From the NCBI GenBank assembly GCA_014630515.1, contig GCA_014630515.1_4091.1: 21,344 nucleotides of DNA; one strand, written 5' to 3'. This document shows positions 3,646-20,879 of this stretch, piece after piece (position 1 is the first letter of the stretch; each line of letters begins with the position of its first letter). Both the position numbers and the translations under genes were made by a program. Origin of the DNA: a phage. The notes beneath the pieces were generated by a model. It saw only the letters and a list, made by a program, of their open reading frames with translations, did no database searches and was not told the origin of the DNA.

Positions 3646-3698
3646 AATTTTGTTTCCTTTTATTGGTGGGGAGAGCTATTCTCCCCTTGATGTAAACT

Positions 3699-3726
3699 AT
3701 TATACAGTACTGATATACTTTGTCAA
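3699..3726 (-). promoter_or_regulatory. early sigma70-type promoter with 5' stem-loop
   Basis: minus strand TTGACA, 16 bp, TATAAT; leader hairpin GGGGAGA-gctat-TCTCCCC. Confidence 0.6.
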
Positions 3727-3729
3727 TAC

Positions 3730-3951
3730 TTAATTACGTTTAAAATGATATGTACCTTTATCATCCTGTACGCCCCATACTGATTTACCATCAACGCCAG
3801 TGATGCCGGATTGCAATTCAATATGGAAACCATTATTATCAACTACAAAAACTTTTTTATTTTCATCCCGATAACATTGATATTCTGAATCAACATTAAA
3901 GGCCGCATCATTCAGAAGATTGGAAGCGTAAATGCAAGTCATTGTAGTCAT
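3730..3951 (-). CDS. hypothetical protein (73 aa)
   Basis: ATG 3949-3951; AAGGA SD 8 nt upstream. Confidence 0.7.
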   Translation of the reverse strand: MTTMTCIYASNLLNDAAFNVDSEYQCYRDENKKVFVVDNNGFHIELQSGITGVDGKSVWGVQDDKGTYHFKRN

Positions 3952-4074: not shown

Positions 4075-4166
4075 GATACACTTCCGCACCCTATGGGTCA
4101 GTGAGTTATCTCTCAATGGATATATAATAGCAAAGGGACTGACCGGAGTCAATCCCTTTTTTAATC
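4075..4166 (-). repeat. repeat element B: conserved leader motif, embedded promoter, GC hairpin with T-run
   Basis: core GCACCCTATGGGTCAGTGAG; hairpin AAAGGGACTGACCGGAGTCAATCCC plus T6; minus-strand TTGACT, 17 bp, TATTAT (4124-4152). Confidence 0.6.
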
Positions 4167-4170
4167 TTTT

Positions 4171-4755
4171 TTATCGTGTTACCTTACTTGCTGCCACATC
4201 ACGCTTTTTATAGTACTGATTCCAGATATTGCTGGTTAAACCGTAATCAAGTACTTTAATAAGTCCATTACGATCCTGGCCGATATTCTGTTTTCTGATA
4301 TCTCTTATCGTTAGTGTTGATAATGTATCATCGACGTGTTGTAGTGCATCAGCAAAGCGGTGCTGGCGTTCAATGGCATTACGTTTAATATTGTACTTTA
4401 ATTCGTTGCACGCGTTAACGTGCTTCACACTGCCTTTGCTTGCAGTACTCAACCGATCCATAACGATAAACATATTATCAGGATCGCATAAATGCATATG
4501 CACCTTTGCAAAGTACTGTTTCAACTGAGGGCGGTCATAGTCTAAAAAATTCCATACCTTACATTCAGTTTCATTTTGTTCTACACCCGCATCACAATTC
4601 GCGACCTTAATCACTAACCGATCATTTAAAGCGAATACTATACGGGAAGAACCAGCACCGATGATCTCCAGGCCAGCTAACCGACAAGCTGAAAGGATCT
4701 CTTTGTTGGTTTCCATTTCTGACAGTGTACGGATGAATTTAGTATAATTACGCAT
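4171..4755 (-). CDS. protein-kinase-like protein (194 aa)
   Basis: ATG 4753-4755; AAGGAG SD 8 nt upstream; translation has glycine-rich IGAGSSR, lysine in VIKV, catalytic-loop-like IRDIRKQN and DFG-like VLDYG in the expected order. Confidence 0.6.
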   Translation of the reverse strand: MRNYTKFIRTLSEMETNKEILSACRLAGLEIIGAGSSRIVFALNDRLVIKVANCDAGVEQNETECKVWNFLDYDRPQLKQYFAKVHMHLCDPDNMFIVMDRLSTASKGSVKHVNACNELKYNIKRNAIERQHRFADALQHVDDTLSTLTIRDIRKQNIGQDRNGLIKVLDYGLTSNIWNQYYKKRDVAASKVTR

Positions 4756-4786
4756 TGCATGTTCTCCTTGAGTTAATGAAACTATA

Positions 4787-5029
4787 TTACAGTACTTTAC
4801 TATCAATGGCAACTACTTTTTTAACATTAACGGCGTGGATCACTTCCTTAGTGTTTTTAGTACTGAATACTTTCGCCGCTCCTTGTTCGACCGTGATGCG
4901 ATAGCGACCATTAACATCAACCATATTAATAAAGTCCGGCGTGCTGAATGGTGTTGTTTTACATTTCAGTACTGTTAACAGTTCCACCAGCGATGTAGTT
5001 TCTTTGATACGTTTTTCTAAAGTAATCAT
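4787..5029 (-). CDS. hypothetical protein (80 aa)
   Basis: ATG 5027-5029; GGGGGA SD; 31-nt gap to 4171..4755 without promoter, so co-transcribed; track start lies in leader. Confidence 0.65.
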   Translation of the reverse strand: MITLEKRIKETTSLVELLTVLKCKTTPFSTPDFINMVDVNGRYRITVEQGAAKVFSTKNTKEVIHAVNVKKVVAIDSKVL

Positions 5030-5674: not shown

Positions 5675-6070
5675 TTAGATAACCTGGCGGCGTTTACTGA
5701 ATACTGTTACACGATTACCCTTACGGTCGTGTCGGATCTCTTTCTGGTTGCGAATCAGTTCACTTGGACGCTTAAGGTTTGCCAGGTGATCCGCGTGAGT
5801 CCATGCGGTGTGGTTTACCTGTACTTTGATATCAGAATCAGCGATAAATTCATCTTGTGCGTCAAGTATTGCCGCCAGCATATCCGCTCGTTTTAGTTCT
5901 GCTGCTGTCAGTACTGGCTCAGGTGAATTCACAATATCAGAGATTTCTTTGAACTGTACGGCCCAGCGTTGACCTTTCGGTGCATCTTTGCCCATGTCTT
6001 TAAATGCTGCTCCTTCCTCGCGTGCAACAATACGGGCAGCTTCACGGGTAGCGTAGAATTTAGTAATCAT
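5675..6070 (-). CDS. hypothetical protein (131 aa), paralog of 18533..18799
   Basis: ATG 6068-6070 with AGGA SD (ATG 6077-6079 also possible); shares ATRE.AR..AR..GA.FKDMG and HDRKGNRVTV blocks with 18533..18799. Confidence 0.65.
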   Translation of the reverse strand: MITKFYATREAARIVAREEGAAFKDMGKDAPKGQRWAVQFKEISDIVNSPEPVLTAAELKRADMLAAILDAQDEFIADSDIKVQVNHTAWTHADHLANLKRPSELIRNQKEIRHDRKGNRVTVFSKRRQVI

Positions 6071-6114
6071 GGTATACATCCTATTAGTTGAGTTAGTACT
6101 ACAAGTTAGAGTCT

Positions 6115-6143
6115 ATTATAAAGTACTATCTGGGCAATGTCAA
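6115..6143 (-). promoter_or_regulatory. early sigma70-type promoter
   Basis: minus strand TTGACA, 17 bp, TATAAT. Confidence 0.6.
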
Positions 6144-6165
6144 ATAGTACTTTAAATGGATTCTA

Positions 6166-6489
6166 TTACATGTCTTTCTTACGTTTTACATCGTGGTAGC
6201 GAACTGTTATTTCTTTGTTGATCTCTTCCTCGATGCGGTGAATAACTTTTTCTTTCGGGTTGAAACCTATAACGGTTTCTTTAATGATCTCCAAGCCCGT
6301 GTATTCGCCTTGTGTACCGTAACCGTATGTAAAGGTTTCGTGTCCCAGGTCTTCCCAGCGGTCGCCAATTAACGCAGACACGTAGCAAGAGTGGTAAGTA
6401 TTGCCGTTCCGATCAGTCCAGCGATTAACTTTAATGTCAAAGGAGGTTACAATTTTCAGTTCTACTTTCTGGGTAAGGATCATAGCCAT
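6166..6489 (-). CDS. hypothetical protein (107 aa), paralog of 13677..14021
   Basis: ATG 6487-6489; shares NTYHS/NTYFS, YGYG and C-terminal DVKRKKD with 13677..14021. Confidence 0.65.
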   Translation of the reverse strand: MAMILTQKVELKIVTSFDIKVNRWTDRNGNTYHSCYVSALIGDRWEDLGHETFTYGYGTQGEYTGLEIIKETVIGFNPKEKVIHRIEEEINKEITVRYHDVKRKKDM

Positions 6490-6545
6490 TTTTATTTCTC
6501 TCTCTTTGTTAGGAGGGGAACCATTCCCCTCGCTTGATGTAAACT

Positions 6546-6573
6546 ATTATACAGTACTAAGATACTTTGTCAA
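6546..6573 (-). promoter_or_regulatory. early sigma70-type promoter with 5' stem-loop
   Basis: minus strand TTGACA, 16 bp, TATAAT; leader hairpin GGGGAA-tgg-TTCCCC. Confidence 0.6.
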
Positions 6574-6576
6574 TAC

Positions 6577-6852
6577 TTAAGTATTGTAAATGTCGTGAAT
6601 AGTGATAAAGTTTTTACGACCGTAAACCTGCAAATCTGTATCAATAAAGTGCTTATCTAGTACATCCTCGACGCTTAACGCGGTGTCGTGGATATCTTCG
6701 TAGAATTGAGGATCTACAATCTTGCTTAAGTCATCCGGCGTTAACTTATCGTTAAGCCATTGTACCGCCTGGATATCTGCATCACGTTTCCATTGTTCCA
6801 GGTTAGTAGTCAGTACTTGTTCGATTTCGTTAGCTGTCAGTAGAATCCGCAT
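6577..6852 (-). CDS. hypothetical protein (91 aa)
   Basis: ATG 6850-6852; AAGGA SD. Confidence 0.7.
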   Translation of the reverse strand: MRILLTANEIEQVLTTNLEQWKRDADIQAVQWLNDKLTPDDLSKIVDPQFYEDIHDTALSVEDVLDKHFIDTDLQVYGRKNFITIHDIYNT

Positions 6853-6885
6853 TTTAATGTTTCCTTATCAGTGGTTGATGTAAGT

Positions 6886-6913
6886 ATTATACTCGTTTAC
6901 TTTCTATTGTCAA
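6886..6913 (-). promoter_or_regulatory. early sigma70-type promoter
   Basis: minus strand TTGACA, 16 bp, TATAAT. Confidence 0.6.
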
Positions 6914-7010
6914 ACTATTTTATCAGGGGAGTTTTTCGTGTGCCTTACTCCTGGGCTACTTAACGGGAAGTTACTTATTTCGTTCCCCGTCCTGATGTAA
7001 AACATTATAC
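6908..7010 (-). repeat. 103-bp duplicated block, copy 1 (non-coding leader between two promoters)
   Basis: identical to 18288-18390; no SD-preceded ORF; contains imperfect GGGAA/TTCCC and GGAG/CTCC inverted repeats. Confidence 0.6.
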
Positions 7011-7031
7011 TTGATTCTAAGTACAATGCAA
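7004..7031 (-). promoter_or_regulatory. early sigma70-type promoter
   Basis: minus strand TTGCAT, 16 bp, TATAAT; transcribes the duplicated block. Confidence 0.55.
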
Positions 7032-7075
7032 GTACTTTTTAAAAATAGTTTTCAGTACTAGCCACCAGCTAACAA

Positions 7076-7160
7076 TAGATACATTTATGCACCCGGTGGG
7101 CTGATTTGTTTCTATGCGTATATAATAGCAAAGGGACTGACCGGAGTCAATCCCTTTTTC
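7076..7160 (-). repeat. repeat element C: conserved leader motif, embedded promoter, GC hairpin with T-run
   Basis: core GCACCCGGTGGGCT; hairpin AAAGGGACTGACCGGAGTCAATCCC plus T5; minus-strand TTGACT, 17 bp, TATTAT (7122-7150). Confidence 0.6.
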
Positions 7161-7168
7161 AATTATTT

Positions 7169-7318
7169 TTAAACTTCTTTCGGGTTGCGATAGGTGATAG
7201 CGTTCGGGTACATTTGTTTAATGTTATTCCATGCCTGGTTAACATTGTAACCACTTGAGCGAATCAGTTGGTTACTACCGACACCTTGAAACACTACTTC
7301 GAATAAGAATTCTTTCAT
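7169..7318 (-). CDS. hypothetical small protein (49 aa), not in ORF track
   Basis: ATG 7316-7318 overlaps TGA of 7315..7488 (ATGA); AGGTGA SD 5 nt upstream; stop TAA 7169-7171. Confidence 0.5.
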   Translation of the reverse strand: MKEFLFEVVFQGVGSNQLIRSSGYNVNQAWNNIKQMYPNAITYRNPKEV

Positions 7319-7488
7319 GCTTTCACCTCGCGATCTGCTTTACCTTTACGCCAGGACATTACTAATTGTTCGCGTTGCCATAAGTCGAGTGATACAAAAA
7401 GTTTTGCGGTATCACTTTTAGGATACTCGCCATTAGTACCTAACCGATAAAACAGATCTTTCAGTACTGATAATTCTACTTGGATCAT
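7315..7488 (-). CDS. hypothetical protein (57 aa)
   Basis: ATG 7486-7488; AGGAA SD 6 nt upstream; track start 7590 lies in promoter. Confidence 0.6.
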   Translation of the reverse strand: MIQVELSVLKDLFYRLGTNGEYPKSDTAKLFVSLDLWQREQLVMSWRKGKADREVKA

Positions 7489-7539
7489 TATACTTTCCTC
7501 TTTGTTGGGAGGGGAACTATTCCCCTTCCGATATAAAAC

Positions 7540-7567
7540 ATTATACACTTTATTCAGTACTGTGCAA
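7540..7567 (-). promoter_or_regulatory. early sigma70-type promoter with 5' stem-loop
   Basis: minus strand TTGCAC, 16 bp, TATAAT. Confidence 0.55.
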
Positions 7568-7574
7568 GTACTTT

Positions 7575-7787
7575 TTAATCTTTCAGCCAATGATCCTGAA
7601 TGAATTTTTCACCGAAGCCTTGCTGCATGGATTGTAACAGTCGTTCACGGTGAGCGGCGGCAAATTGCTCAGTACTATGCGTTACACCTGGTTGATATCT
7701 GGATTCACCATTGGGGGCGATGTATTGTACATCCCACGGTTTAGCGTTAGTATCAGACCATTTACGAACGATTAGTTGACCTTGCAT
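7575..7787 (-). CDS. hypothetical protein (70 aa)
   Basis: ATG 7785-7787; AGGAA SD; track start lies in leader. Confidence 0.65.
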   Translation of the reverse strand: MQGQLIVRKWSDTNAKPWDVQYIAPNGESRYQPGVTHSTEQFAAAHRERLLQSMQQGFGEKFIQDHWLKD

Positions 7788-7837
7788 TTTTCTTTCCTCA
7801 GTACTGGGGAGAATCATTTCTCCCCTTCATGTAACTT

Positions 7838-7865
7838 ATTATACAGTACTGGATTGCATTGTCAA
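7838..7865 (-). promoter_or_regulatory. early sigma70-type promoter with 5' stem-loop
   Basis: minus strand TTGACA, 16 bp, TATAAT; leader hairpin GGGGAGAA-atgatt-CTCCCC. Confidence 0.6.
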
Positions 7866-7871
7866 TAGTTT

Positions 7872-8195
7872 TTATTCACCTTGTTTGAATTTAGTTTTCT
7901 GCATTGATTCCATGATTGCAACTAGTACCGCATGAATCTCGCTTAACGCGGAATCACTGAAAGCATTAATGAATAGTCGATCATTCTCGCGAATATTTTT
8001 AATGTACTTTTCAGCAGTAGTTGCGAATTCATTCAACGGTAGATCAAATGCTTTATCCCATGATGGATGGCGTAATTGTAACAGTACTGGATTATCACGG
8101 TCACCAGGTGAGAAAGTGCCTGTAATGAAACATACACCTGGGATACTTTCGAATTGACAACGGACTTCTTTTGTGATAGTAGTGTGAATATACAT
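7872..8195 (-). CDS. hypothetical protein (107 aa)
   Basis: ATG 8193-8195; AGGAA SD 8 nt upstream; 25-nt gap to 8221..8409, so co-transcribed. Confidence 0.7.
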   Translation of the reverse strand: MYIHTTITKEVRCQFESIPGVCFITGTFSPGDRDNPVLLQLRHPSWDKAFDLPLNEFATTAEKYIKNIRENDRLFINAFSDSALSEIHAVLVAIMESMQKTKFKQGE

Positions 8196-8220
8196 TTATC
8201 GTTTTCCTATTGAGTTAATA

Positions 8221-8409
8221 TTACATATTTTTAATTAATTCTTTATCTAAGCGATAGCGTACATTATTAATGGTAACAGCATTATTTTTAATGCTACGCT
8301 GTACTGGCCCACCAGCAAGAACAAACGTTGCTTTATTGCCCCGAACTATGATAGCACTTCCAGGATTACCGAAATCATCTTGTACTAAAATACTTGATAA
8401 GTTTTCCAT
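8221..8409 (-). CDS. hypothetical protein (62 aa)
   Basis: ATG 8407-8409 lies 8 nt after GAGGA; the ATG at 8413-8415 is too close to the SD. Confidence 0.6.
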   Translation of the reverse strand: MENLSSILVQDDFGNPGSAIIVRGNKATFVLAGGPVQRSIKNNAVTINNVRYRLDKELIKNM

Positions 8410-8455
8410 TTTCATTTCCTCTTAGTAGGGGAAGACGTTTCCTCTTGATGTAAGT

Positions 8456-8484
8456 ACTATAACAGTACTGAAAACTAAATGCAA
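8456..8484 (-). promoter_or_regulatory. early sigma70-type promoter
   Basis: minus strand TTGCAT, 17 bp, TATAGT. Confidence 0.5.
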
Positions 8485-8487
8485 GTA

Positions 8488-8844
8488 CTATGATAAAATC
8501 ATGATAGGATATTCACTATCGATCAGTACCTCGAATCCAAAACCTTCGTACCATTCTTTAAGATTAAAGGCGTTATCTTCTCCCGTATCGCATTCTAAGA
8601 TGATACAATCTGAATCATCGGCGGCATCGATAAAGGCATTCATTAATTCGTTACCTTCACCATTGCCCCGACTATCAGGATCAACATAAAGAGAATCAAT
8701 AAACGCTACACGGTCATAATCAAGATCCGGTGCAATGATTCCACGTTTAACAAACCAGTACTGCAATTGTGCTACTTTGCCCTGTACTTGATAACCAGTG
8801 ATCTCGCCATTGTCAGTAGTACGCGTGATATGATGTATTCCCAT
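8488..8844 (-). CDS. GNAT-family N-acetyltransferase-like protein (118 aa)
   Basis: ATG 8842-8844; AGGAT SD; translation has GNAT motif-A-like YVDPDSRGNGEGNELM and C-terminal WYEGFGFE. Confidence 0.6.
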   Translation of the reverse strand: MGIHHITRTTDNGEITGYQVQGKVAQLQYWFVKRGIIAPDLDYDRVAFIDSLYVDPDSRGNGEGNELMNAFIDAADDSDCIILECDTGEDNAFNLKEWYEGFGFEVLIDSEYPIMILS

Positions 8845-8873
8845 GATTTCTATCCTCAGTTAAGATATAAAAC

Positions 8874-8901
8874 ATTATACACTATCTTTCAGTACTGTCA
8901 A
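8874..8901 (-). promoter_or_regulatory. early sigma70-type promoter
   Basis: minus strand TTGACA, 16 bp, TATAAT. Confidence 0.6.
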
Positions 8902-8908
8902 TTACTTT

Positions 8909-9166
8909 TTATCTCATAGATCTATGCCAACAATTACGCGGATCTCTTTTAAAAGTACTATCATGATCCTCCTGGCAAGTGATACAGTACTTACACCCCT
9001 TAACGGCCTGGCGGCGATTCTCAGGGATTTTATCGCCGCAGTCGAGGCAATGTATCAGTGATTCTATTTGTGCGTTAATTTGCGTTCTAGCGTGGTTAAC
9101 AGCGGCCTGAATCACTGCGTTAATCTCGTCTTGCTCGGCCCCATCTTTTGTGAATCCTACAGCCAT
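8909..9166 (-). CDS. TraR/DksA-family C4 zinc-finger protein (85 aa)
   Basis: ATG 9164-9166; translation has CLDCGDKIPENRRQAVKGCKYCITCQ (CxxC, 17 residues, CxxC with conserved Arg). Confidence 0.65.
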   Translation of the reverse strand: MAVGFTKDGAEQDEINAVIQAAVNHARTQINAQIESLIHCLDCGDKIPENRRQAVKGCKYCITCQEDHDSTFKRDPRNCWHRSMR

Positions 9167-9464
9167 TATTTTAACCTCATTATAAAAATACTATAGTACT
9201 GTAACGCGACAAGTATATTACTTGTTCTTACTTTTTCCAATCCATACGACACGACATATTCATCCCCATATGTGCGGATCACCACACCATGAAAATTTTT
9301 ATACACTTCCACTACTAATCATAACCTTTCGTCTAACCAACTGCATAGAATTATACTACTTTACGCAAATTGATCAAGTATTGATCAGATCATTTTTTGA
9401 TCAATATTAGACAGCTACATTTGTGCACCCTATGGGTTAGTGACGTTCTCGTCTTGATGTAAGT

Positions 9465-9493
9465 ATTATGCCAGTACTGGCATAATTTGTCAA
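9465..9493 (-). promoter_or_regulatory. sigma70-type promoter followed by conserved leader motif (element E)
   Basis: minus strand TTGACA, 17 bp, CATAAT; leader 9421-9460 carries the GCACCCTATGGGTTAGTGAC core; the nearest downstream gene is ~290 nt away. Confidence 0.5.
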
Positions 9494-9497
9494 TAGA

Positions 9498-9695
9498 TTA
9501 TTTTAACTTTTTTCTGTCATTGATTAATGCTTTCAGTACTATACTAATAACTTGCAATGATTCATCAATGACTATGAAATTATTCTCTTTCATTAGATGA
9601 TAGTTACCATTGATTGTATATTCTAATGAGTATTGTTTACGTTTAATTTTTGATAATGTATCAATTTGTTTTTGTACTGATTTCATGCTAATCAT
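9498..9695 (-). CDS. hypothetical protein (65 aa)
   Basis: ATG 9693-9695; AGGA SD 9 nt upstream; no clear own promoter. Confidence 0.55.
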   Translation of the reverse strand: MISMKSVQKQIDTLSKIKRKQYSLEYTINGNYHLMKENNFIVIDESLQVISIVLKALINDRKKLK

Positions 9696-9758
9696 TGTTA
9701 AACGTCCTGTAATGCATTCTAACGAGTTAAACGGTTTAGTACTGGCATTGTATAGGGT

Positions 9759-9794
9759 AAATGATTAAAGCCCACCAGCGTTAACCAGTGGGCT
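9759..9794 (-). terminator. rho-independent terminator (minus strand)
   Basis: minus strand AGCCCAC-loop-GTGGGCT (7-bp stem) followed by TTTAATCATTT; 3 nt after stop of 9801..9944. Confidence 0.55.
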
Positions 9795-9800
9795 ATATTC

Positions 9801-9944
9801 TTACATCTTGCGGATAATCTTAACAGTATCTTTCACCGATTTACCGTTTTGCTGGCATTGCTCGATCATCGCGTATTGTTCTGCGGTCAGATCCTCGCCA
9901 GTTTTTGCCAGTACTGCGTCGATGAATGAATCCAGTGCGATCAT
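9801..9944 (-). CDS. hypothetical small protein (47 aa), not in ORF track
   Basis: ATG 9942-9944; AAGAGAG SD; own promoter 9989-10016; stop TAA 9801-9803. Confidence 0.55.
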   Translation of the reverse strand: MIALDSFIDAVLAKTGEDLTAEQYAMIEQCQQNGKSVKDTVKIIRKM

Positions 9945-9988
9945 TTTGTTTCTCTCTTAGGTTAAGTTAACTACTGTTTATAAAACTT

Positions 9989-10016
9989 ATTATACAGTAC
10001 TATCAATCATTGTCAA
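9989..10016 (-). promoter_or_regulatory. early sigma70-type promoter
   Basis: minus strand TTGACA, 16 bp, TATAAT. Confidence 0.6.
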
Positions 10017-10043
10017 TAGATTTAATAGTACTGGTAATATATT

Positions 10044-10223
10044 TTAGCGGTAGTCGTCGTATGCTTTATTCACCTGGCGAATGTAACTTTCAAAGGCTTC
10101 GTCTACCGTTTCATACTCCCGAACATAATCACCATAGGAAACTACATACATCCCTTTTTGATCTTCAAACGTCATGATGATAGAATCCAGGCCGATGATT
10201 TCAGTTTTTGCGATAATAGCCAT
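10044..10223 (-). CDS. hypothetical protein (59 aa), paralog of 14113..14325
   Basis: ATG 10221-10223; AAGGA SD; track start 10295 lies in promoter; shares MAII start and Y.VS...Y....VD.A..Y block with 14113..14325. Confidence 0.6.
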   Translation of the reverse strand: MAIIAKTEIIGLDSIIMTFEDQKGMYVVSYGDYVREYETVDEAFESYIRQVNKAYDDYR

Positions 10224-10266
10224 TTTAGTATTCCTTAAATTAATATGCGTTGTCTTGATAAAAGTT

Positions 10267-10295
10267 ATTATGCCAGTACTATCAAACGTTGTCAA
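10267..10295 (-). promoter_or_regulatory. sigma70-type promoter (CATAAT subtype)
   Basis: minus strand TTGACA, 17 bp, CATAAT; same cassette as 14065-14093 and 14361-14389. Confidence 0.55.
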
Positions 10296-10314
10296 TAGTA
10301 CTGTGATAATATTT

Positions 10315-10527
10315 TTAGTTAATGATAGTCAGTGTAAAATTGTAATCCCCTGCCTGGTATAGTACTTTATCGCCGAACGTGCCAACACGTTTCATATTGC
10401 AATAGATACCCATAACACTTTTTACATCTTTGATATTCCGAACACCTGTGATATCCTTGTTGAAATTTTCATGATCAGAAAATAAAACTTGTTTTGCATT
10501 TTTCAGTACAGTGCGGATATTAGCCAT
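10315..10527 (-). CDS. hypothetical protein (70 aa)
   Basis: ATG 10525-10527; GAGGA SD; track start lies in leader. Confidence 0.65.
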   Translation of the reverse strand: MANIRTVLKNAKQVLFSDHENFNKDITGVRNIKDVKSVMGIYCNMKRVGTFGDKVLYQAGDYNFTLTIIN

Positions 10528-10577
10528 TTTGTTTTTCCTCTTAGTGGGGAGAATCATCTCTCCCCTTGATGTAAACT

Positions 10578-10605
10578 ATTATACAGTACTATAATCTATT
10601 GTCAA
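10578..10605 (-). promoter_or_regulatory. early sigma70-type promoter with 5' stem-loop
   Basis: minus strand TTGACA, 16 bp, TATAAT; leader hairpin GGGGAGAG-atgatt-CTCCCC. Confidence 0.6.
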
Positions 10606-10618
10606 ACTATTTTTTATA

Positions 10619-10957
10619 TTATTCGAAATCTTCTGGACCGGACTGATAATCATCTTCACCGTATGCACTTTCTAACTTCTCACCAGTGCAATCATCAGTT
10701 AGTGAGTCATCCTCATAGTTCACGTCTACGCCAGTGATGTAAAACTGGCTATCGTCTGGATCATTGAAATTAATTTTTTGGATGTTTACAATAACTGTAT
10801 TGATACCCAGGACACCGCCATCAGCCGTTACAAAGTACTGATAGTTTTCGCAACCGCCTGAATTGAAACCGTAATTAATTTCGGCCCGACCATCATTTAA
10901 ACGCAGTGCCTGGGCGATGAATTCGTTTTCAAAGTTAGATTGAGCGATTGAGATCAT
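10619..10957 (-). CDS. acidic protein (112 aa)
   Basis: ATG 10955-10957; AAGGAA SD; C-terminal third is Asp/Glu-rich. Confidence 0.7.
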   Translation of the reverse strand: MISIAQSNFENEFIAQALRLNDGRAEINYGFNSGGCENYQYFVTADGGVLGINTVIVNIQKINFNDPDDSQFYITGVDVNYEDDSLTDDCTGEKLESAYGEDDYQSGPEDFE

Positions 10958-11021
10958 TTTGTAGTTCCTTGTTTGCTTAAGATGGGACTATTATATAATA
11001 GCCCCGTTGTGTTGTCTAGTA

Positions 11022-11489
11022 CTATTTTACGTTAATTTCTAAGTACTGCTCTTTGATGTTTTCCTGTTGGTAAATCTCGTTTAATGCTTTAAGATCTAAC
11101 ACCTGTTTACCTGCGGCCCGAATATACTTGTTAAGAGTCGCTAACAGCTTCTCAGGCGTGTTTGTAGTCTTACGGGTAGGGATTTTGTCATGTCCCATCG
11201 CGTAGTACTGTTTACGTGGAATAGTACTGATAACGCTGCGGTACGGTTCCATGATCAGCTTGTCTGTGTATTCGTCGCTATCCCCGAACTTCATACCGTG
11301 GATCGCAAAGGTCATCATCATGCGGTCGTTATCGCGGATATTGTGGGGGCAGTCGGCAAGCTCGCGAGTCAGTGACATAGTGATCCCCACGTCGCCACCC
11401 AGCGGTAAAGGTCGGGCGATAAAGAAACCGTTAGGGAATACTTTCAGGAAGTTTTCTTGTACTGCTGCGACGAATTCGATGCTATTCAT
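11022..11489 (-). CDS. hypothetical protein (155 aa)
   Basis: ATG 11487-11489; AGGAA SD 7 nt upstream; leader hairpin GGGGAAA-cgg-TTTCCCC. Confidence 0.7.
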   Translation of the reverse strand: MNSIEFVAAVQENFLKVFPNGFFIARPLPLGGDVGITMSLTRELADCPHNIRDNDRMMMTFAIHGMKFGDSDEYTDKLIMEPYRSVISTIPRKQYYAMGHDKIPTRKTTNTPEKLLATLNKYIRAAGKQVLDLKALNEIYQQENIKEQYLEINVK

Positions 11490-11541
11490 AATTCATTTCC
11501 TTAGTTACCAGGGGAAACCGTTTCCCCTTGCTATGTAAAAC

Positions 11542-11569
11542 ATTATACTTGATTCTAAGTACAATGCAA
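11542..11569 (-). promoter_or_regulatory. early sigma70-type promoter with 5' stem-loop
   Basis: minus strand TTGCAT, 16 bp, TATAAT. Confidence 0.6.
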
Positions 11570-11589
11570 GTACTTTTTGCAAAATACTT

Positions 11590-11772
11590 TTAATCTCTTT
11601 GATACTCACATAACGCCATATCATACGCAATTGACGCTGATTTGAAATCATCGTGACGCTCAATCTCTTTCATGTCTACATAGATGATCCATAGGTTTAC
11701 GTCTTCCTGGCGTATGATAACGGCAGGTTTACCGATGATATGTGATGCCGCTAGTTCGATTGGTTTAAACAT
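11590..11772 (-). CDS. hypothetical protein (60 aa)
   Basis: ATG 11770-11772; AAGGAG SD 8 nt upstream; transcribed from the promoter inside repeat element D. Confidence 0.65.
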   Translation of the reverse strand: MFKPIELAASHIIGKPAVIIRQEDVNLWIIYVDMKEIERHDDFKSASIAYDMALCEYQRD

Positions 11773-11805
11773 TGTAGTACTCCTTATTAGATTGATATAT
11801 TTTAT

Positions 11806-11892
11806 TTACACTTCCGCACCCGGTGGGCTAGTGAGCTATCTCTCAATGAATATATAATAGCAAAATGGCTGACCGAAGTCAACCACTTTTTT
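11806..11892 (-). repeat. repeat element D: conserved leader motif, embedded promoter, variant hairpin
   Basis: core GCACCCGGTGGGCTAGTGAG; hairpin TGGCTGACCGAAGTCAACCA with compensatory changes relative to A-C; T6 on plus strand; minus-strand TTGACT, 17 bp, TATTAT (11854-11882). Confidence 0.6.
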
Positions 11893-12029
11893 CATTTATT
11901 TTTAGCTTTCAGAATCGCCGCCTTTCGCGTCATGCCTTGCTTGATGTACTCCTTTACTTTCGCTTTACGTGCTTTCGCTTTATCTGCTTTCGTTTTAGGA
12001 GTACTGTAAATTAAACCGTTAGGATTCAT
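11892..12029 (-). CDS. lysine-rich small protein (45 aa), not in ORF track
   Basis: ATG 12027-12029 directly follows TAA of 12030..12119 (TAAATG); about one third Lys/Arg; stop TGA 11892-11894. Confidence 0.45.
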   Translation of the reverse strand: MNPNGLIYSTPKTKADKAKARKAKVKEYIKQGMTRKAAILKAKNK

Positions 12030-12119
12030 TTAAATCACCATAAAGAATAGATAGGTTACTAACAATGCCGCGATCAATGCACCGACCAGGGCCGAACTGT
12101 AATAAGCTAATGATTTCAT
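12030..12119 (-). CDS. small hydrophobic membrane peptide (29 aa), not in ORF track
   Basis: ATG 12117-12119 overlaps TGA of 12116..12268 (ATGA); translation MKSLAYYSSALVGALIAALLVTYLFFMVI has one predicted transmembrane helix. Confidence 0.45.
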   Translation of the reverse strand: MKSLAYYSSALVGALIAALLVTYLFFMVI

Positions 12120-12268
12120 TTTTTAGCCTGAAAGTAATGTTTAATTTGTGCGGCTGTCAGTGCACAATTACGCAGGAAGTTTTCTGTATAACTCCTACGA
12201 GTACTGAAAGAAAATTGACCTTTGCCGTTGCCGATAGTAACATCAAACCGAGCGTTGTATTGTTTCAT
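12116..12268 (-). CDS. hypothetical protein (50 aa)
   Basis: ATG 12266-12268; AGGAG SD 7 nt upstream; track start 12298 lies in leader. Confidence 0.6.
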   Translation of the reverse strand: MKQYNARFDVTIGNGKGQFSFSTRRSYTENFLRNCALTAAQIKHYFQAKK

Positions 12269-12318
12269 TTTGATTCTCCTAGTATCGGGGAGAATCATTC
12301 CCCCCCTCTATGTAAACA

Positions 12319-12346
12319 ATTATACAGTACTGAAAACTAATTGCAA
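12319..12346 (-). promoter_or_regulatory. early sigma70-type promoter with 5' stem-loop
   Basis: minus strand TTGCAA, 16 bp, TATAAT. Confidence 0.6.
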
Positions 12347-12349
12347 GTA

Positions 12350-12496
12350 CTATTTTTTAGATTTACGCAAACTTTCTACCATCTCAGGAGTAAGGTCCGG
12401 CGGGTAGGAAACCACTTCATCAACGAAACGTAAAGGGAATACCCCAGCGAAAGGTGAACATGCTTTCTTAGTATTACTCTTTTTTGATGCTTTCAT
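12350..12496 (-). CDS. hypothetical small protein (48 aa), not in ORF track
   Basis: ATG 12494-12496; AAGGA SD 7 nt upstream; stop TAG 12350-12352. Confidence 0.55.
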   Translation of the reverse strand: MKASKKSNTKKACSPFAGVFPLRFVDEVVSYPPDLTPEMVESLRKSKK

Positions 12497-13676: not shown

Positions 13677-14021
13677 TTAAAGATCTTTTTTGCGTTTAAC
13701 ATCAGTTACCGAACTGTAAACAGTGATATTATTGTCACGGCAAAAACGGGAAAGATAAGAACCGCGTAAAAACTCTTTACCTTCCATATTAATAACCTTG
13801 CTAAATTCTTCCATTGCTACAGTGTCAAAGTGATCCCCGTATCCATATTGGAACGGCACGTTTACTACTTCAATAAAATTACCATCAATTTCTACGTCTA
13901 CACTTAAAGAGAAATAAGTGTTACCATATGAAGCCTGGAACCAACGCCGAGCGGCAATATGTACAACTTCAACAGAAGACAGGTTGATATTTTGTGATGC
14001 GATAGTGTTGATGTTAGCCAT
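13677..14021 (-). CDS. hypothetical protein (114 aa), paralog of 6166..6489
   Basis: ATG 14019-14021; AAGGA SD; C-terminal DVKRKKDL. Confidence 0.7.
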   Translation of the reverse strand: MANINTIASQNINLSSVEVVHIAARRWFQASYGNTYFSLSVDVEIDGNFIEVVNVPFQYGYGDHFDTVAMEEFSKVINMEGKEFLRGSYLSRFCRDNNITVYSSVTDVKRKKDL

Positions 14022-14064
14022 TTTAGTATTCCTTAACTTAATATGTGTTGTCTTGATAAAATCT

Positions 14065-14093
14065 ATTATGCCAGTACTATCAAACTATGTCAA
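14065..14093 (-). promoter_or_regulatory. sigma70-type promoter (CATAAT subtype)
   Basis: minus strand TTGACA, 17 bp, CATAAT. Confidence 0.55.
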
Positions 14094-14112
14094 TAGTACT
14101 GTGATAATAATT

Positions 14113-14325
14113 TTACTTACTTTCTTTCGCTGCTTTATGTGTTGCCACTGCCATAACCACATCAGCACGAACAAAGTTAGCAACCGTATCAGTGTAATAT
14201 TTGATTGCATCGTCAACTTCTGCGAACGTCCGATACATACCACACCAAGATACTTTATAACCTGCTTTCACTTGTTCCAGCTTAACCAGTGTTTTGTTTA
14301 CTTTGATTTTAGTAATGATAGCCAT
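14113..14325 (-). CDS. hypothetical protein (70 aa), paralog of 10044..10223
   Basis: ATG 14323-14325; GAGGA SD 9 nt upstream. Confidence 0.65.
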   Translation of the reverse strand: MAIITKIKVNKTLVKLEQVKAGYKVSWCGMYRTFAEVDDAIKYYTDTVANFVRADVVMAVATHKAAKESK

Positions 14326-14360
14326 TTTTTTGTTTCCTCTTAGTTGTCTTGATAAAATCT

Positions 14361-14389
14361 ATTATGCCAGTACTATCAATCTATGTCAA
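14361..14389 (-). promoter_or_regulatory. sigma70-type promoter (CATAAT subtype)
   Basis: minus strand TTGACA, 17 bp, CATAAT; ~70-bp block repeated from 14040-14110. Confidence 0.55.
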
Positions 14390-14408
14390 TAGTACTGTGA
14401 TAATAATT

Positions 14409-14552
14409 TTACTTACTTTTTGCTTTCTTTGATGCTTCAACCTGGTCGGCCCACTCTTTACCCCATACTTGAGCATTATAATGATACTGGCAAAGAGCAA
14501 CGCCCCGCTTTAAACCAGTAATAGATTTTTTACCACATTGACAAGTTTTCAT
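14409..14552 (-). CDS. small Cys-containing protein (47 aa), not in ORF track
   Basis: ATG 14550-14552; GAGGA SD; CQCG ... CQYH spacing suggests a small metal-binding knuckle; stop TAA 14409-14411. Confidence 0.5.
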   Translation of the reverse strand: MKTCQCGKKSITGLKRGVALCQYHYNAQVWGKEWADQVEASKKAKSK

Positions 14553-16426: not shown

Positions 16427-16648
16427 TTACTTAGTAAGATATAAACAAAAATCACCTTTCTTTGCTACGCCGCCAGTGTAACGCGATGAATAGTTAGAAA
16501 CGTCTTGCACTTCTGCAATGACGAGCGTATCATCATTTATTTCGTCGCAAAAACATACTGCGGGATCTTCTACGCCAATATTGTCAGCATGTGCCCGCAT
16601 AGATTTAACCAGTGCTTCAAGCTGGGAAAGAGTAGTGATATTAGCCAT
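16427..16648 (-). CDS. hypothetical protein (73 aa)
   Basis: ATG 16646-16648; AAGGAG SD 8 nt upstream. Confidence 0.7.
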   Translation of the reverse strand: MANITTLSQLEALVKSMRAHADNIGVEDPAVCFCDEINDDTLVIAEVQDVSNYSSRYTGGVAKKGDFCLYLTK

Positions 16649-16699
16649 TGTAAAACTCCTTATTAGTGGGGAGAACCATTTCTCCCCTTGATGTAAACT

Positions 16700-16727
16700 A
16701 TTATACAGTACTGGAAACTAATTGCAA
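16700..16727 (-). promoter_or_regulatory. early sigma70-type promoter with 5' stem-loop
   Basis: minus strand TTGCAA, 16 bp, TATAAT. Confidence 0.6.
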
Positions 16728-16735
16728 GTACTTTT

Positions 16736-16939
16736 TTAATTTAATTGCTTTAAAACATAATCAAAGACACCACGCACATCATTGATCATCGCCTGGCGGT
16801 TAGCAGGTAACGCATCAGGATCGCCACTATCCCAGGCATTAATGAAGCCACCTAAATCATGGAATACTTTATTCCGTAACCCGATCAACTGCAATTCTTT
16901 TTCTTCAAGCTCTTTGATACGTTTAATTAAATCACTCAT
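16736..16939 (-). CDS. hypothetical protein (67 aa)
   Basis: ATG 16937-16939; GAGGA SD overlaps stop of 16957..17241; start region GAGGATTATCTAATGAGT is duplicated at 17241. Confidence 0.6.
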   Translation of the reverse strand: MSDLIKRIKELEEKELQLIGLRNKVFHDLGGFINAWDSGDPDALPANRQAMINDVRGVFDYVLKQLN

Positions 16940-20359: not shown

Positions 20360-20480
20360 TTGATTTAGCCGTCTATACTTCCAGACGTGTAACCATCTAG
20401 CCGTTTAGCCGTCCAAACGTCTAGCCATCCAGCCATCCAGAAATCTAGACGTTTAGCCGTCTAGATGGATAGCCATCTTT
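20360..20480. repeat. iteron-like direct-repeat array
   Basis: 7 copies of YAGCCRTY within ~115 bp (TTTAGCCGTC at 20364, 20404, 20452); also CTAGACGT/CTAGATGG and ACTTCCAGAC repeats; preceded by A-rich tract 20341-20360. Confidence 0.5.
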
Positions 20481-20879
20481 ACTTCCAGACTTCTGGAGGG
20501 CTAGACATATCTACGTCCAAAATCCATCCAGGGTAACTACGCCCAAAATCCGTCAGTACTATACCATAGATCTATCTTTTGAAAGGGAGTATTCAGTACT
20601 GCCATCATAGCCCTCACTATGTTACCCTAGGAGGATGAAGACTATCATGTAGTACTGAATACTGTTAGAGGGAATCCACCAGCACAAGCTGGTGGCATAA
20701 TGCTTTAGATTAAAATCAGTACTGACACCATTCTGTTAATATCAGTACTGTTATTACGATTTTCATATGAGGTTCAAAAAGATGTACCACCACAGGAGGA
20801 ACTATCTTTTCTGTACTGTCTCACGACAGGAGGTAGAGTAAATGAATTGTTCGCAGCAACTCATCTCTCTATGTAGAAC

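What the first reader, a model, noticed from the sequence alone, without database searches (positions are those of the whole stretch)
8488..9166. Adjacent GNAT-like acetyltransferase and TraR/DksA-type zinc-finger genes
8488..8844 has GNAT motif-A-like YVDPDSRGNGEGNELM and a WYEGFGFE tail; 8909..9166 has the CxxC-x17-CxxC signature of TraR/DksA-family proteins, which bind the RNA polymerase secondary channel. Both are plausible host-manipulation functions, and the acetyltransferase target is unknown.
Basis: partly seen in the sequence, partly recalled or inferred. Interest (0 to 1): 0.45.

Follow-up and report, generated by a model that had tools for sequence, protein, structure and literature searches.

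The report
Phage early acetyltransferase and TraR-like genes
Two neighbouring small early genes of a giant E. coli phage really do encode a stripped-down GNAT acetyltransferase and a TraR/DksA-type zinc-finger protein, but both are already annotated this way in near-identical phages and they are independent gene cassettes, not a functional pair.

Summary
ORF 8488..8844 (-) passes the curated cut-offs of three Pfam GNAT models. It has an intact acetyl-CoA motif A and a confident GNAT-fold model. ORF 8909..9166 (-) passes zf-dskA_traR and matches phrog_54, E. coli YbiI and F-plasmid TraR.

The window is about 92% identical to Asteriusvirus jumbo coliphages such as 121Q and fEgEco12. In those records the same genes are already named "GNAT family N-acetyltransferase" and "DksA-like zinc-finger protein". 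Both lie in the roughly 21-kb direct terminal repeat, which is packed with small genes behind near-consensus sigma-70 promoters.

What the tools added:
- The GNAT is a 118-aa, very acidic, minimal form that lacks the usual N-terminal helices. Its family also occurs as a domain in phage multidomain proteins next to ADP-ribosyltransferase domains. One of its closest solved folds is the anti-CRISPR acetyltransferase AcrVA5.
- The zinc-finger protein is YbiI-like. It keeps the zinc site and the RR pair but has FxxDxA instead of DxxDxA.
- The adjacency is not a module. The GNAT has its own promoter, is absent from phage slurp01, and does not accompany the homolog in a T4-like phage.

The targets and activities of both proteins remain inferred. 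Novelty is low.

The parts
8488..8844 (-). CDS of a 118-aa minimal GNAT N-acetyltransferase. Motif A is R59-G-N-G62-E-G64 and motif B is F93..L95..W98-Y99-E..G-F104. Net charge is -16 and pI about 4.05.
8874..8901 (-). The GNAT gene's own sigma-70 promoter-like site, TTGACA-16-TATAAT (12 of 12 matches), lying between the zinc-finger stop codon and the GNAT start.
   Evidence: Promoter scan; sequence read; member of repeat family D3 (88% to the reference copy).
8853..8857 (-). Shine-Dalgarno-like GAGGA, 8 nt upstream of the GNAT ATG.
   Evidence: Read directly from the sequence.
8909..9166 (-). CDS of an 85-aa TraR/DksA-family C4 zinc-finger protein of the YbiI type. Zinc ligands are C40, C43, C61 and C64. 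R51-R52 match TraR R48-R49. The N-terminal tip is F5-x-x-D8-x-A10, and the conserved tail is P76-RNCWHRSMR-85.
   Evidence: PRK11019, 8.7e-23; YbiI 2kgo 9e-12, TraR 1.5e-5; alignments; model; Foldseek.
9166..9312 (-). 48-aa ORF of unknown function (GTG start). Its stop codon overlaps the zinc-finger ATG by one base (TAATG), so the two are probably co-transcribed and translationally coupled.
   Evidence: phrog_38664 at 6e-33; annotated as g029 in fEgEco12; overlap read.
9350..9377 (-). Promoter-like site TTGATC-16-TATAAT (10 of 12 matches) upstream of the pair formed by the 48-aa ORF and the zinc-finger gene.
8440..8497 (-). Promoter and leader repeat downstream of the GNAT stop (TTGCAT-17-TATAGT followed by a stem-loop). 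It is the right-hand boundary of the GNAT cassette and drives the next gene, 8221..8415.
   Evidence: Repeat family D8; the slurp01 deletion junction falls within these promoter repeats.

Best explanation
These are two independent early genes in the roughly 21-kb direct terminal repeat of an Asteriusvirus-type jumbo coliphage. Host sigma-70 RNA polymerase transcribes them from near-consensus promoters.

(1) The 85-aa protein is a TraR/DksA-family zinc-finger protein of the YbiI type. By inference, it inserts its N-terminal helix into the RNA polymerase secondary channel and docks on the channel rim through its conserved RR pair. Without ppGpp, this would turn down rRNA and ribosomal-protein promoters and redirect host polymerase, as shown for TraR and lambda Orf73.

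(2) The 118-aa protein is a minimal but catalytically competent-looking GNAT. By inference, it uses acetyl-CoA to acetylate an amino group on a basic host target. The most likely target is a lysine or N-terminus of a host protein in the transcription or translation machinery, or in a defence system.

Shown here: family membership, fold, intact cofactor and zinc motifs, promoter architecture, distribution, and the cassette nature of the GNAT. Inferred: RNA polymerase binding, acetyl transfer, the substrate, and the timing of expression.

For: A whole-library HMMER search found 289 relatives. Most are 117-150-aa solo proteins that match over the full length. G64, W98 and Y99 are invariant, and G17, Y18, R59, G62, L83, D86, E89, F93, L95, F104, P113 and M115 are nearly invariant.

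The same signature occurs in GNAT domains of multidomain proteins that also carry ART-PolyVal with NUDIX, PARP with ParB_N, Amidoligase_2, or DUF5661. This fits the GNAT family that Iyer et al. 2017 described in phage 'polyvalent proteins' next to ART domains and placed in the RimI-like, protein-modifying clade (PMC5512222). The family is strongly acidic, with median net charge -13, which argues for a basic substrate and against nucleic acids.

For the zinc-finger protein, M1, A2, G4, R27, C40, C43, I47, R51, R52, C61, C64 and Q65 are invariant across 43 homologs. The model has an N-terminal helix (7-29), a zinc knuckle and a C-terminal helix (62-71). It superposes on RNAP-bound TraR (6n57, 5w1s) at 2.4-2.6 A over 65 columns.

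All five phage or prophage TraR homologs tested bound RNAP and inhibited rRNA promoters, and R48/R49 and DxxDxA are required in TraR (PMC9239242). YbiI is reported to rescue a dksA deletion strain when over-expressed, as data not shown (PMC2613031).

For context, the window is about 92% identical to Asteriusvirus phages. The genes sit at record positions 11.5-12.2 kb of fEgEco12, inside its 20,993-bp terminal repeat. The GNAT promoter matches consensus at 12 of 12 positions.
Against: There are no experimental data for either protein or for any close homolog. The zinc-finger protein lacks the canonical DxxDxA motif. Its best match is F5-x-x-D8-x-A10, with the first Asp replaced by a conserved aromatic residue, as in YbiI. 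Its score against the YbiI equivalog model is below the curated cut-off (80.5 vs 96 bits). Its model is only moderately confident (pLDDT 70.2). The authors who tested YbiI thought it more likely to be involved in iron metabolism.

The GNAT lacks the alpha1-alpha2 arm that shapes the acceptor site in canonical GNATs, so the substrate cannot be read from homology. The nearest sequence hits are spread over antibiotic, phosphinothricin and N-terminal acetyltransferases. Gene neighbourhoods of distant solo homologs are not informative.
Confidence: 0.7

Rival explanations
1. The two genes form a functional module. The GNAT would acetylate RNA polymerase or a partner, and the TraR-like protein would target or assist it, resembling phiKMV Rac (a GNAT acting on the RNAP alpha subunit) combined with a secondary-channel binder.
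For: They are adjacent, on the same strand, and both are early genes. A phage GNAT that inactivates host RNAP exists (Rac, PMC7552054; discussed for jumbo phages in PMC7824862).
Against: The GNAT has its own 12-of-12 promoter, separate from the TraR-like transcription unit. By tblastn, the GNAT occurs in 25 phage records and the TraR-like gene in 976. About 34 records have a TraR-like gene at 80% identity or more, against 24 with the GNAT. Phage slurp01 keeps the TraR-like gene but lacks the GNAT cassette precisely. The T4-like phage examined (UPEC01) carries a 65%-identical TraR-like gene between tk, vs and regB-type genes with no GNAT. The two metagenomic loci with distant GNAT homologs show no zf-dskA_traR hit among their called genes, and no DksA/TraR-type gene is annotated near the GNAT homolog of phage 05F01.
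Confidence: 0.07
2. The GNAT acetylates a small molecule rather than a protein. Candidates are a polyamine, an aminoglycoside-like or peptide antibiotic, a toxic amino-acid analogue, or a nucleotide-derived defence signal.
For: The best single-sequence PDB hit is a phosphinothricin acetyltransferase (7.2e-4). Weak NCBIfam hits go to ArsN1, AAC(6') and Sat enzymes, all far below cut-off. Strong acidity is also typical of enzymes that act on polycationic small molecules.
Against: All those hits cover only the generic acetyl-CoA-binding half. The family-specific relatives are domains of phage multidomain effector proteins next to ART domains, which Iyer et al. placed in the RimI-like, protein-modifying clade. 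A profile of the family hits N-terminal acetyltransferases such as Naa50, Naa30 and RimI as often as antibiotic enzymes.
Confidence: 0.2
3. The zinc-finger protein is not an RNAP secondary-channel regulator. Like some C4 zinc-finger 'DksA/TraR homologs' that lack DxxDxA, it would do something else, for example a metal-related role as suggested for YbiI, or binding another partner through its conserved PRNCWHRSMR tail.
For: The canonical DxxDxA motif is absent. The literature notes that C4 zinc-finger homologs lacking DxxDxA and the C-terminal helix do not function like DksA (PMC9239242). The conserved C-terminal tail is not found in TraR and matches a separate PHROG of unknown function (phrog_25948).
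Against: The second Asp and the Ala of the motif, the RR pair, the zinc site, an N-terminal helix of TraR-like length and a C-terminal helix are all present. Homologs with an incomplete motif (P2 Orf82, Gp34) were still active. YbiI is reported to rescue a dksA deletion strain at high expression.
Confidence: 0.25
4. The 118-aa GNAT is a truncated, inactive remnant.
For: It is 30-50 residues shorter than typical GNATs, and Pfam profiles match only their C-terminal half.
Confidence: 0.05

Closest known systems
E. coli YbiI (PDB 2kgo; NCBIfam PRK11019) and F-plasmid TraR / lambda Orf73 (PDB 5w1s, 6n57)
   Same: Small size (85 vs 88 and 73 aa), a CxxC-x17-CxxC zinc site, the IPExRR segment (R51/R52 matching TraR R48/R49), an N-terminal helix and a short C-terminal helix. 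The N-terminus MAVGF.KDGA resembles YbiI MASGWANDDA.
   Different: FxxDxA replaces DxxDxA. A phage-specific conserved tail, FKRxPRNCWHRSMR, replaces the YbiI tail NRRGSKDSQLR and the TraR C-terminus. The score is below the YbiI equivalog cut-off. The protein is encoded by a virulent jumbo phage rather than a plasmid, a temperate phage or the chromosome. No activity data exist.
GNAT domain of phage/prophage 'polyvalent proteins' (Iyer et al. 2017, PMC5512222)
   Same: Full-length matches (E about 1e-9 to 1e-13) with the shared signature G[SD]..GY, QL.N[WY], R[GN].G.G, [AS]D[TS].E..N.F.L..WYE.[FY]GFE and P.M. The partner domains ART-PolyVal, PARP, ParB_N, NUDIX and Amidoligase_2 are typical of polyvalent proteins.
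   Different: Here the GNAT is a solo 118-aa protein expressed from an early promoter, not part of a giant protein thought to be packaged in the virion. I could not compare it directly with the accession named in the paper (BAR32501.1).
AcrVA5 (PDB 6iuf), an anti-CRISPR minimal GNAT that acetylates Cas12a
   Different: Only 22% identity, and it is not among the best 60 sequence-profile hits in the PDB. The phage protein has about 25 extra N-terminal residues forming a beta-hairpin and a helix. The resemblance is in fold and possibly in mode of action, not in family membership.
phiKMV-like phage Rac (a GNAT that leads to cleavage of the RNAP alpha subunit; PMC7552054)
   Same: A phage-encoded GNAT deployed against host transcription. 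It has been proposed as the paradigm for the many jumbo-phage GNATs (PMC7824862).
   Different: Host and phage type differ. This is an analogy only.

Membership tests
GNAT superfamily (Pfam Acetyltransf_1, _7, _10) | Profile match above the curated gathering score | tested here: met
   37.2 vs 20.7 bits, 33.5 vs 27 bits and 26.3 vs 23.6 bits.
GNAT superfamily (Pfam Acetyltransf_1, _7, _10) | Acetyl-CoA pyrophosphate-binding motif A, (Q/R)-x-x-G-x-(G/A), between beta4 and alpha3 | tested here: met
   R59-G-N-G62-E-G64. G64 is invariant and R59 and G62 are nearly invariant in 35 family members.
GNAT superfamily (Pfam Acetyltransf_1, _7, _10) | GNAT core fold (beta4-alpha3-beta5-alpha4-beta6-beta7) | tested here: met
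GNAT superfamily (Pfam Acetyltransf_1, _7, _10) | Canonical N-terminal arm (beta1-alpha1-alpha2) forming the acceptor site | tested here: not met
   Only a beta-hairpin (residues 3-21) and one helix (25-33) precede beta4. Profiles match from position 53 of 116 onwards. This is a minimal GNAT, like AcrVA5.
GNAT superfamily (Pfam Acetyltransf_1, _7, _10) | Acetyl transfer from acetyl-CoA to an amine | not testable with these tools
   Needs an enzyme assay.
Polyvalent-protein GNAT family (Iyer et al. 2017) | Homology to GNAT domains that sit beside ART domains in phage multidomain proteins | tested here: met
   P0104 (2284 aa; GNAT, ART-PolyVal, NUDIX), P0061 (GNAT, PARP, ParB_N) and P0114 (Amidoligase_2, GNAT) match query residues 9-117, 10-117 and 3-109 with E from 1e-9 to 1e-12 and share the family signature.
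Polyvalent-protein GNAT family (Iyer et al. 2017) | Identity with the specific family exemplified by BAR32501.1 | not tested
TraR/DksA family (Pfam zf-dskA_traR; functional TraR group) | C4 zinc finger, CxxC-x17-CxxC | tested here: met
   C40, C43, C61 and C64 are invariant in 43 homologs. Pfam gives 45 bits against a 24.9 cut-off.
TraR/DksA family (Pfam zf-dskA_traR; functional TraR group) | Arg pair equivalent to TraR R48/R49 (contacts to the rim helices and beta' Si3) | tested here: met
   IPENRR aligns with TraR IPEARR. R51 and R52 are invariant. Their role comes from PMC9239242.
TraR/DksA family (Pfam zf-dskA_traR; functional TraR group) | N-terminal helix carrying the DxxDxA motif | tested here: not met
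   The helix is predicted at residues 7-29, but the tip reads F5-T-K-D8-G-A10. The first Asp is replaced by a conserved Phe (Trp in YbiI), while the second Asp (Glu in one homolog) and the Ala are conserved. The register relative to TraR is uncertain because HMMER aligns only from residue 18.
TraR/DksA family (Pfam zf-dskA_traR; functional TraR group) | C-terminal helix (contacts beta Si1 in TraR) | tested here: inconclusive
   A short helix is predicted at 62-71, followed by a low-confidence conserved tail. The sequence is unlike the TraR C-terminus.
TraR/DksA family (Pfam zf-dskA_traR; functional TraR group) | Binds the RNAP secondary channel and regulates initiation without ppGpp | not testable with these tools
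   Needs RNAP binding and in vitro transcription assays.
YbiI equivalog (NCBIfam PRK11019) | Score above the curated equivalog cut-off | tested here: not met
   80.5 bits against a cut-off of 96. It is the closest family but not an equivalog. Identity to YbiI is 37%.
AcrVA5 anti-CRISPR | Sequence homology to AcrVA5 and presence of a Cas12a target | tested here: not met

The most novel reading that the evidence does not exclude
The acidic mini-GNAT could be an enzymatic anti-defence or host-takeover effector that works like AcrVA5. Made within the first minutes from the terminal-repeat DNA, it would acetylate a critical lysine of a DNA- or RNA-binding host protein and so neutralise it. That target could be an E. 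coli immune protein, or a nucleoid, RNAP or ribosomal protein. The same domain would do this job inside phage polyvalent proteins. This would define a widespread phage family of about 120-140-aa acetyltransferase effectors.
Probability: 0.2. Interest if true: 0.6.

Novelty: already known. Interest (0 to 1): 0.2.

Why it matters
As an annotation it adds nothing. GenBank records of 121Q, fEgEco12, JP4 and others already call these genes a GNAT acetyltransferase and a DksA-like zinc-finger protein.

The modest value lies in three refinements.
- The jumbo-phage TraR-like protein belongs to an untested YbiI-like branch with an altered tip motif. That branch is shared at 65-72% identity with many T4-like phages, which makes it a good candidate for extending the TraR/Orf73 paradigm to virulent phages.
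- The mini-GNAT ties a solo early gene to the GNAT domain of phage multidomain effector proteins and, by fold, to AcrVA5. This points to enzymatic modification of a host protein.
- The region illustrates gain and loss of promoter-bounded gene cassettes in a jumbo-phage terminal repeat.

Tried and rejected
- Word-indexed homolog search with the GNAT found only Asteriusvirus copies. The exhaustive HMMER search was needed to find the family.
- Gene neighbourhoods of two distant solo GNAT homologs (L003 and L005) showed phage contexts (prohead protease and endonuclease VII; RtcB and a CCA-adding enzyme). There was no conserved partner and no TraR-like gene, so they gave no clue to the substrate.
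- The nearest non-Asteriusvirus phage homolog, Klebsiella phage 05F01 (47% identity), sits among hypothetical genes.
- The BFVD fold search returned many small viral GNATs but none characterised.
- A literature search for ybiI was swamped by ytterbium(II) chemistry papers.
- Pfam and PHROGs on ten neighbouring ORFs gave only unknown-function families.
- Rfam and tRNA scans of the window were empty.
- I considered a TacT/AtaT-type aminoacyl-tRNA-acetylating toxin and rejected it. No toxin family appeared among the NCBIfam or PDB hits, and a net charge of -16 is unfavourable for tRNA binding.
- I considered an extended -10 (TGn) element in the promoters. The scan marks it absent for the 12-of-12 promoters.

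Full report
**What is there.** ORF 8488..8844 encodes 118 aa, and 8909..9166 encodes 85 aa. The quoted motifs are present: YVDPDSRGNGEGNELM at residues 53-68, WYEGFGFE at 98-105, and C40-x-x-C43-x17-C61-x-x-C64.

The profile hits are significant and exceed curated thresholds.
- The 118-aa protein matches Pfam Acetyltransf_1 (E 3.9e-9, 37.2 bits vs 20.7), Acetyltransf_7 (33.5 vs 27) and Acetyltransf_10 (26.3 vs 23.6).
- The 85-aa protein matches zf-dskA_traR (E 1.1e-11, 45 bits vs 24.9).
- PHROGs assigns them to acetyltransferase phrog_1249 and DksA-like zinc-finger phrog_54.
- NCBIfam places the zinc-finger protein nearest PRK11019, the YbiI family (8.7e-23). The score of 80.5 bits is below the equivalog cut-off of 96.

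**Where the window comes from.** The region is 91-95% identical at the DNA level to Asteriusvirus jumbo coliphages such as 121Q, fEgEco12, JP4 and SP27. In several of those records the same two genes are already annotated as "GNAT family N-acetyltransferase"/"acetyltransferase" and "DksA-like zinc-finger protein"/"TraR/DksA C4-type zinc finger protein".

In fEgEco12 the genes lie at record positions 11,479-12,156. That is inside the 20,993-bp direct terminal repeat, whose size came from PhageTerm and whose presence was confirmed by restriction digests (PMC13070987). Records that include both repeats carry the GNAT twice. The 21.3-kb window is essentially this terminal repeat.

**Transcription architecture.** Nearly all ORFs are small and lie on the minus strand. 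Twenty-one sites on that strand match TTGACA-N16-18-TATAAT with at most one mismatch, and seven of those in 6000-12000 are perfect 12-of-12 matches.
- The GNAT has its own perfect promoter (8901..8874) in the 64-nt gap after the zinc-finger stop codon, plus a GAGGA ribosome-binding site.
- The zinc-finger gene starts one base inside the stop codon of a 48-aa ORF (9166..9312; phrog_38664, unknown function). It is probably co-transcribed from a 10-of-12 promoter at 9377..9350.

Early expression by host RNA polymerase is inferred from this architecture. It has not been shown.

**The acetyltransferase.** Pfam profiles match only with their C-terminal half, so I tested whether the protein is a fragment.
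- An exhaustive HMMER scan found 289 relatives at E of 1e-3 or better. Most are 117-150-aa proteins aligned over the whole length.
- Across 35 of them, G64, W98 and Y99 are invariant. G17, Y18, R59, G62, L83, D86, E89, F93, L95, F104, P113 and M115 are nearly invariant.
- R59-G-N-G62-E-G64 fits the GNAT acetyl-CoA motif A, (Q/R)xxGx(G/A). From my own knowledge, the WYE..GF segment is motif B, and Y99 aligns with the catalytic Tyr of RimI-type enzymes.
- AlphaFold2 on this alignment gives pLDDT 93.8 and pTM 0.87. The model has a beta-hairpin (3-21), one helix (25-33), and then the canonical beta4-alpha3-beta5-alpha4-beta6-beta7. The usual beta1-alpha1-alpha2 arm is missing.
- AcrVA5 acetylates and inactivates Cas12a (bioRxiv 10.1101/2021.11.16.468554). 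It shows that a GNAT core of this size can be a working enzyme. Its similarity to the phage protein is structural only, because it is not among the best 60 sequence-profile hits in the PDB.
- The phage protein is conserved at 99.2% identity across 18 phage records, although the surrounding DNA is about 92% identical.

A decayed remnant is therefore unlikely.

**Clues to what the GNAT does.** Three lines of evidence bear on this.
- The family is strongly acidic. The window protein has net charge -16 and pI about 4.05, and the family median charge is -13. This favours a basic acceptor and argues against tRNA or DNA substrates.
- The same family, with its specific signature (G[SD]..GY, QL.N[WY], R[GN].G.G, [AS]D[TS].E..N.F.L..WYE.[FY]GFE, P.M), occurs as a domain of long multidomain proteins. 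These carry ART-PolyVal with NUDIX (P0104, 2284 aa), PARP with ParB_N (P0061), Amidoligase_2 (P0114) or DUF5661 (P0074, P0168).
- This is the domain repertoire of the 'polyvalent proteins' of phages and conjugative elements. [quoted passage not shown] The same group proposed that the many jumbo-phage GNATs act like phiKMV Rac on host proteins (PMC7824862; Rac in PMC7552054).

On this basis I favour acetylation of a host protein, with probability about 0.5-0.6, over a small-molecule substrate, at about 0.2. The actual target is unknown. Neighbourhoods of distant solo homologs are phage-like but not informative.

**The zinc-finger protein.**
- Its closest solved relatives are E. coli YbiI (2kgo, E 9e-12) and F-plasmid TraR (5w1s and 6n57, E about 1.5e-5).
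- Among 43 homologs, C40, C43, C61, C64, R27, I47, R51, R52 and Q65 are invariant.
- The segment IPENRR aligns with TraR IPEARR. R51 and R52 therefore correspond to TraR R48 and R49, which contact the secondary-channel rim helices and beta' Si3 (PMC9239242).
- The AlphaFold2 model is moderately confident (pLDDT 70.2). It shows an N-terminal helix (7-29), a zinc knuckle and a C-terminal helix (62-71). It superposes on RNAP-bound TraR at 2.4-2.6 A with TM 0.57-0.71.
- All five phage or prophage TraR homologs tested experimentally bound RNAP, inhibited rRNA and ribosomal-protein promoters, and complemented a dksA deletion strain. [quoted passage not shown]

One defining feature is not met. The N-terminal tip reads M-A-V-G-F5-T-K-D8-G-A10 rather than DxxDxA. 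The first Asp is replaced by a conserved aromatic residue (Phe here, Trp in YbiI), while the second Asp (Glu in one homolog) and the Ala are kept. The register relative to TraR is uncertain, because HMMER aligns only from residue 18. TraR D6N abolishes function (PMC2613031). Homologs with incomplete motifs were weaker but still active. YbiI rescued a dksA deletion strain only at high expression, reported as data not shown. The phage clade also has a conserved C-terminal tail, FKRxPRNCWHRSMR, that is absent from TraR and YbiI. I put TraR-like regulation through the secondary channel at about 0.6-0.65, and a different role at about 0.25.

**Is the adjacency meaningful?** No.
- By tblastn the GNAT occurs in 25 phage records: 24 at 88-99% identity, plus Klebsiella phage 05F01 at 47%.
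- The zinc-finger protein has homologs in 976 phage records, including many T4-like phages at 65-72% identity.
- In the Gaprivervirus UPEC01 the homolog lies among tk, vs and regB-type genes with no GNAT.
- Asteriusvirus phage slurp01 has the zinc-finger gene immediately followed by the 189-bp gene that lies downstream of the GNAT in fEgEco12.
- The three-way alignment shows a clean absence of the GNAT cassette. The junction lies inside the repeated promoter sequences, so the -35 side of the 'GNAT promoter' is fused to the -10 side of the next gene's promoter.

The GNAT is thus an accessory cassette bounded by promoters. It was gained or lost by recombination between repeated promoter elements. 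The same process is described for the PeSL (promoter-early stem-loop) elements of T4-type phages (PMC2839356 and PMC4122927).

**Verdict.** The refinements have modest specialist interest: a minimal acidic GNAT related to polyvalent-protein GNAT domains and AcrVA5-like in fold, a YbiI-type TraR homolog with an altered tip motif, and independent cassettes in the terminal repeat. The substrate and activity of both proteins remain to be tested.

Noticed in passing
whole window, e.g. 8874-8901, 7838-7865, 10578-10605, 6546-6573 (all minus strand): AGTACT occurs 133 times in 21.3 kb (about 5 expected) and CAGTACTG occurs 42 times (about 0.3 expected). The motif sits in the promoter spacer just upstream of the -10 hexamer (…CAGTACTGTATAAT) and often also just upstream of the -35. 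Twenty-one minus-strand and four plus-strand sites match TTGACA-N16-18-TATAAT with at most one mismatch. It may be a phage-specific promoter element or a protein-binding site.
   Followed up: partly
17-18 copies, e.g. 2460-2520, 3646-3739, 6493-6586, 7785-7878, 10525-10618, 12266-12359, 16647-16740: A repeated 60-110-nt unit precedes many of the small genes. It consists of an early promoter, a GC-rich 5' stem-loop (GGGGAGAA…TTCTCCCC) and a ribosome-binding site. It resembles the PeSL 'promoter-early stem-loop' shuffling cassettes of T4-type phages. The GNAT presence/absence junction in slurp01 lies within such repeats.
   Followed up: partly
9395-9439 and 9465-9493 (minus strand); similar copies at 2140, 4056, 11786, 18429; plus-strand relative at about 16294: The near-consensus promoter at 9493 (-) is followed by about 110 nt with no ORF. 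That stretch contains a conserved small hairpin (GCACCC-TAT-GGGTGC type, 5 copies in the window) before the next promoter. It could be a short non-coding RNA or a leader. Rfam has no match.
   Followed up: no
7130-7157 and 11862-11889 (minus strand); repeat copies at about 2211-2240 and 4132-4161: A conserved 12-bp-stem hairpin, AAAGGGATTGACTCCGGTCAGTCCCTTT, is followed by GCTATTATAT. This is a terminator-like stem whose arm contains a TTGACT -35 with a TATTAT -10 downstream, making a composite terminator-promoter element.
   Followed up: no
20370-20521: An array of degenerate 8-nt periodic repeats (CGTCTAGC, CATCCAGC, CGTTTAGC and similar) lies near the end of the window. In fEgEco12 orientation that end is close to the physical left terminus of the genome. 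It could be a terminus, packaging or replication-related element.
   Followed up: no
4171-4812 (minus strand): A 213-aa ORF has a weak, sub-threshold protein-kinase match (Pfam Pkinase, E 0.0049, 16.7 vs 31.7 bits; phrog_4301, unknown function). Its counterpart in fEgEco12 is annotated as a 'serine/threonine-protein kinase'. It may be a second host-protein-modifying early enzyme in the same terminal repeat.
   Followed up: no
10212-10321, 14010-14119, 14306-14415 (and 2813-2878): A promoter and leader of about 110 nt is repeated three or four times at 70-91% identity, in front of ORFs at about 10044-10295 and about 14113-14325. This points to paralogous early gene cassettes.
   Followed up: no
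whole window vs fEgEco12 (L001): The window length (21,344 bp) and content correspond to the roughly 21-kb direct terminal repeat reported for Asteriusvirus phages (fEgEco12 20,993 bp; vB_Ec-M-J 21,525 bp). From my own knowledge, this recalls the terminal-repeat pre-early (first-step-transfer) region of phage T5.
   Followed up: partly
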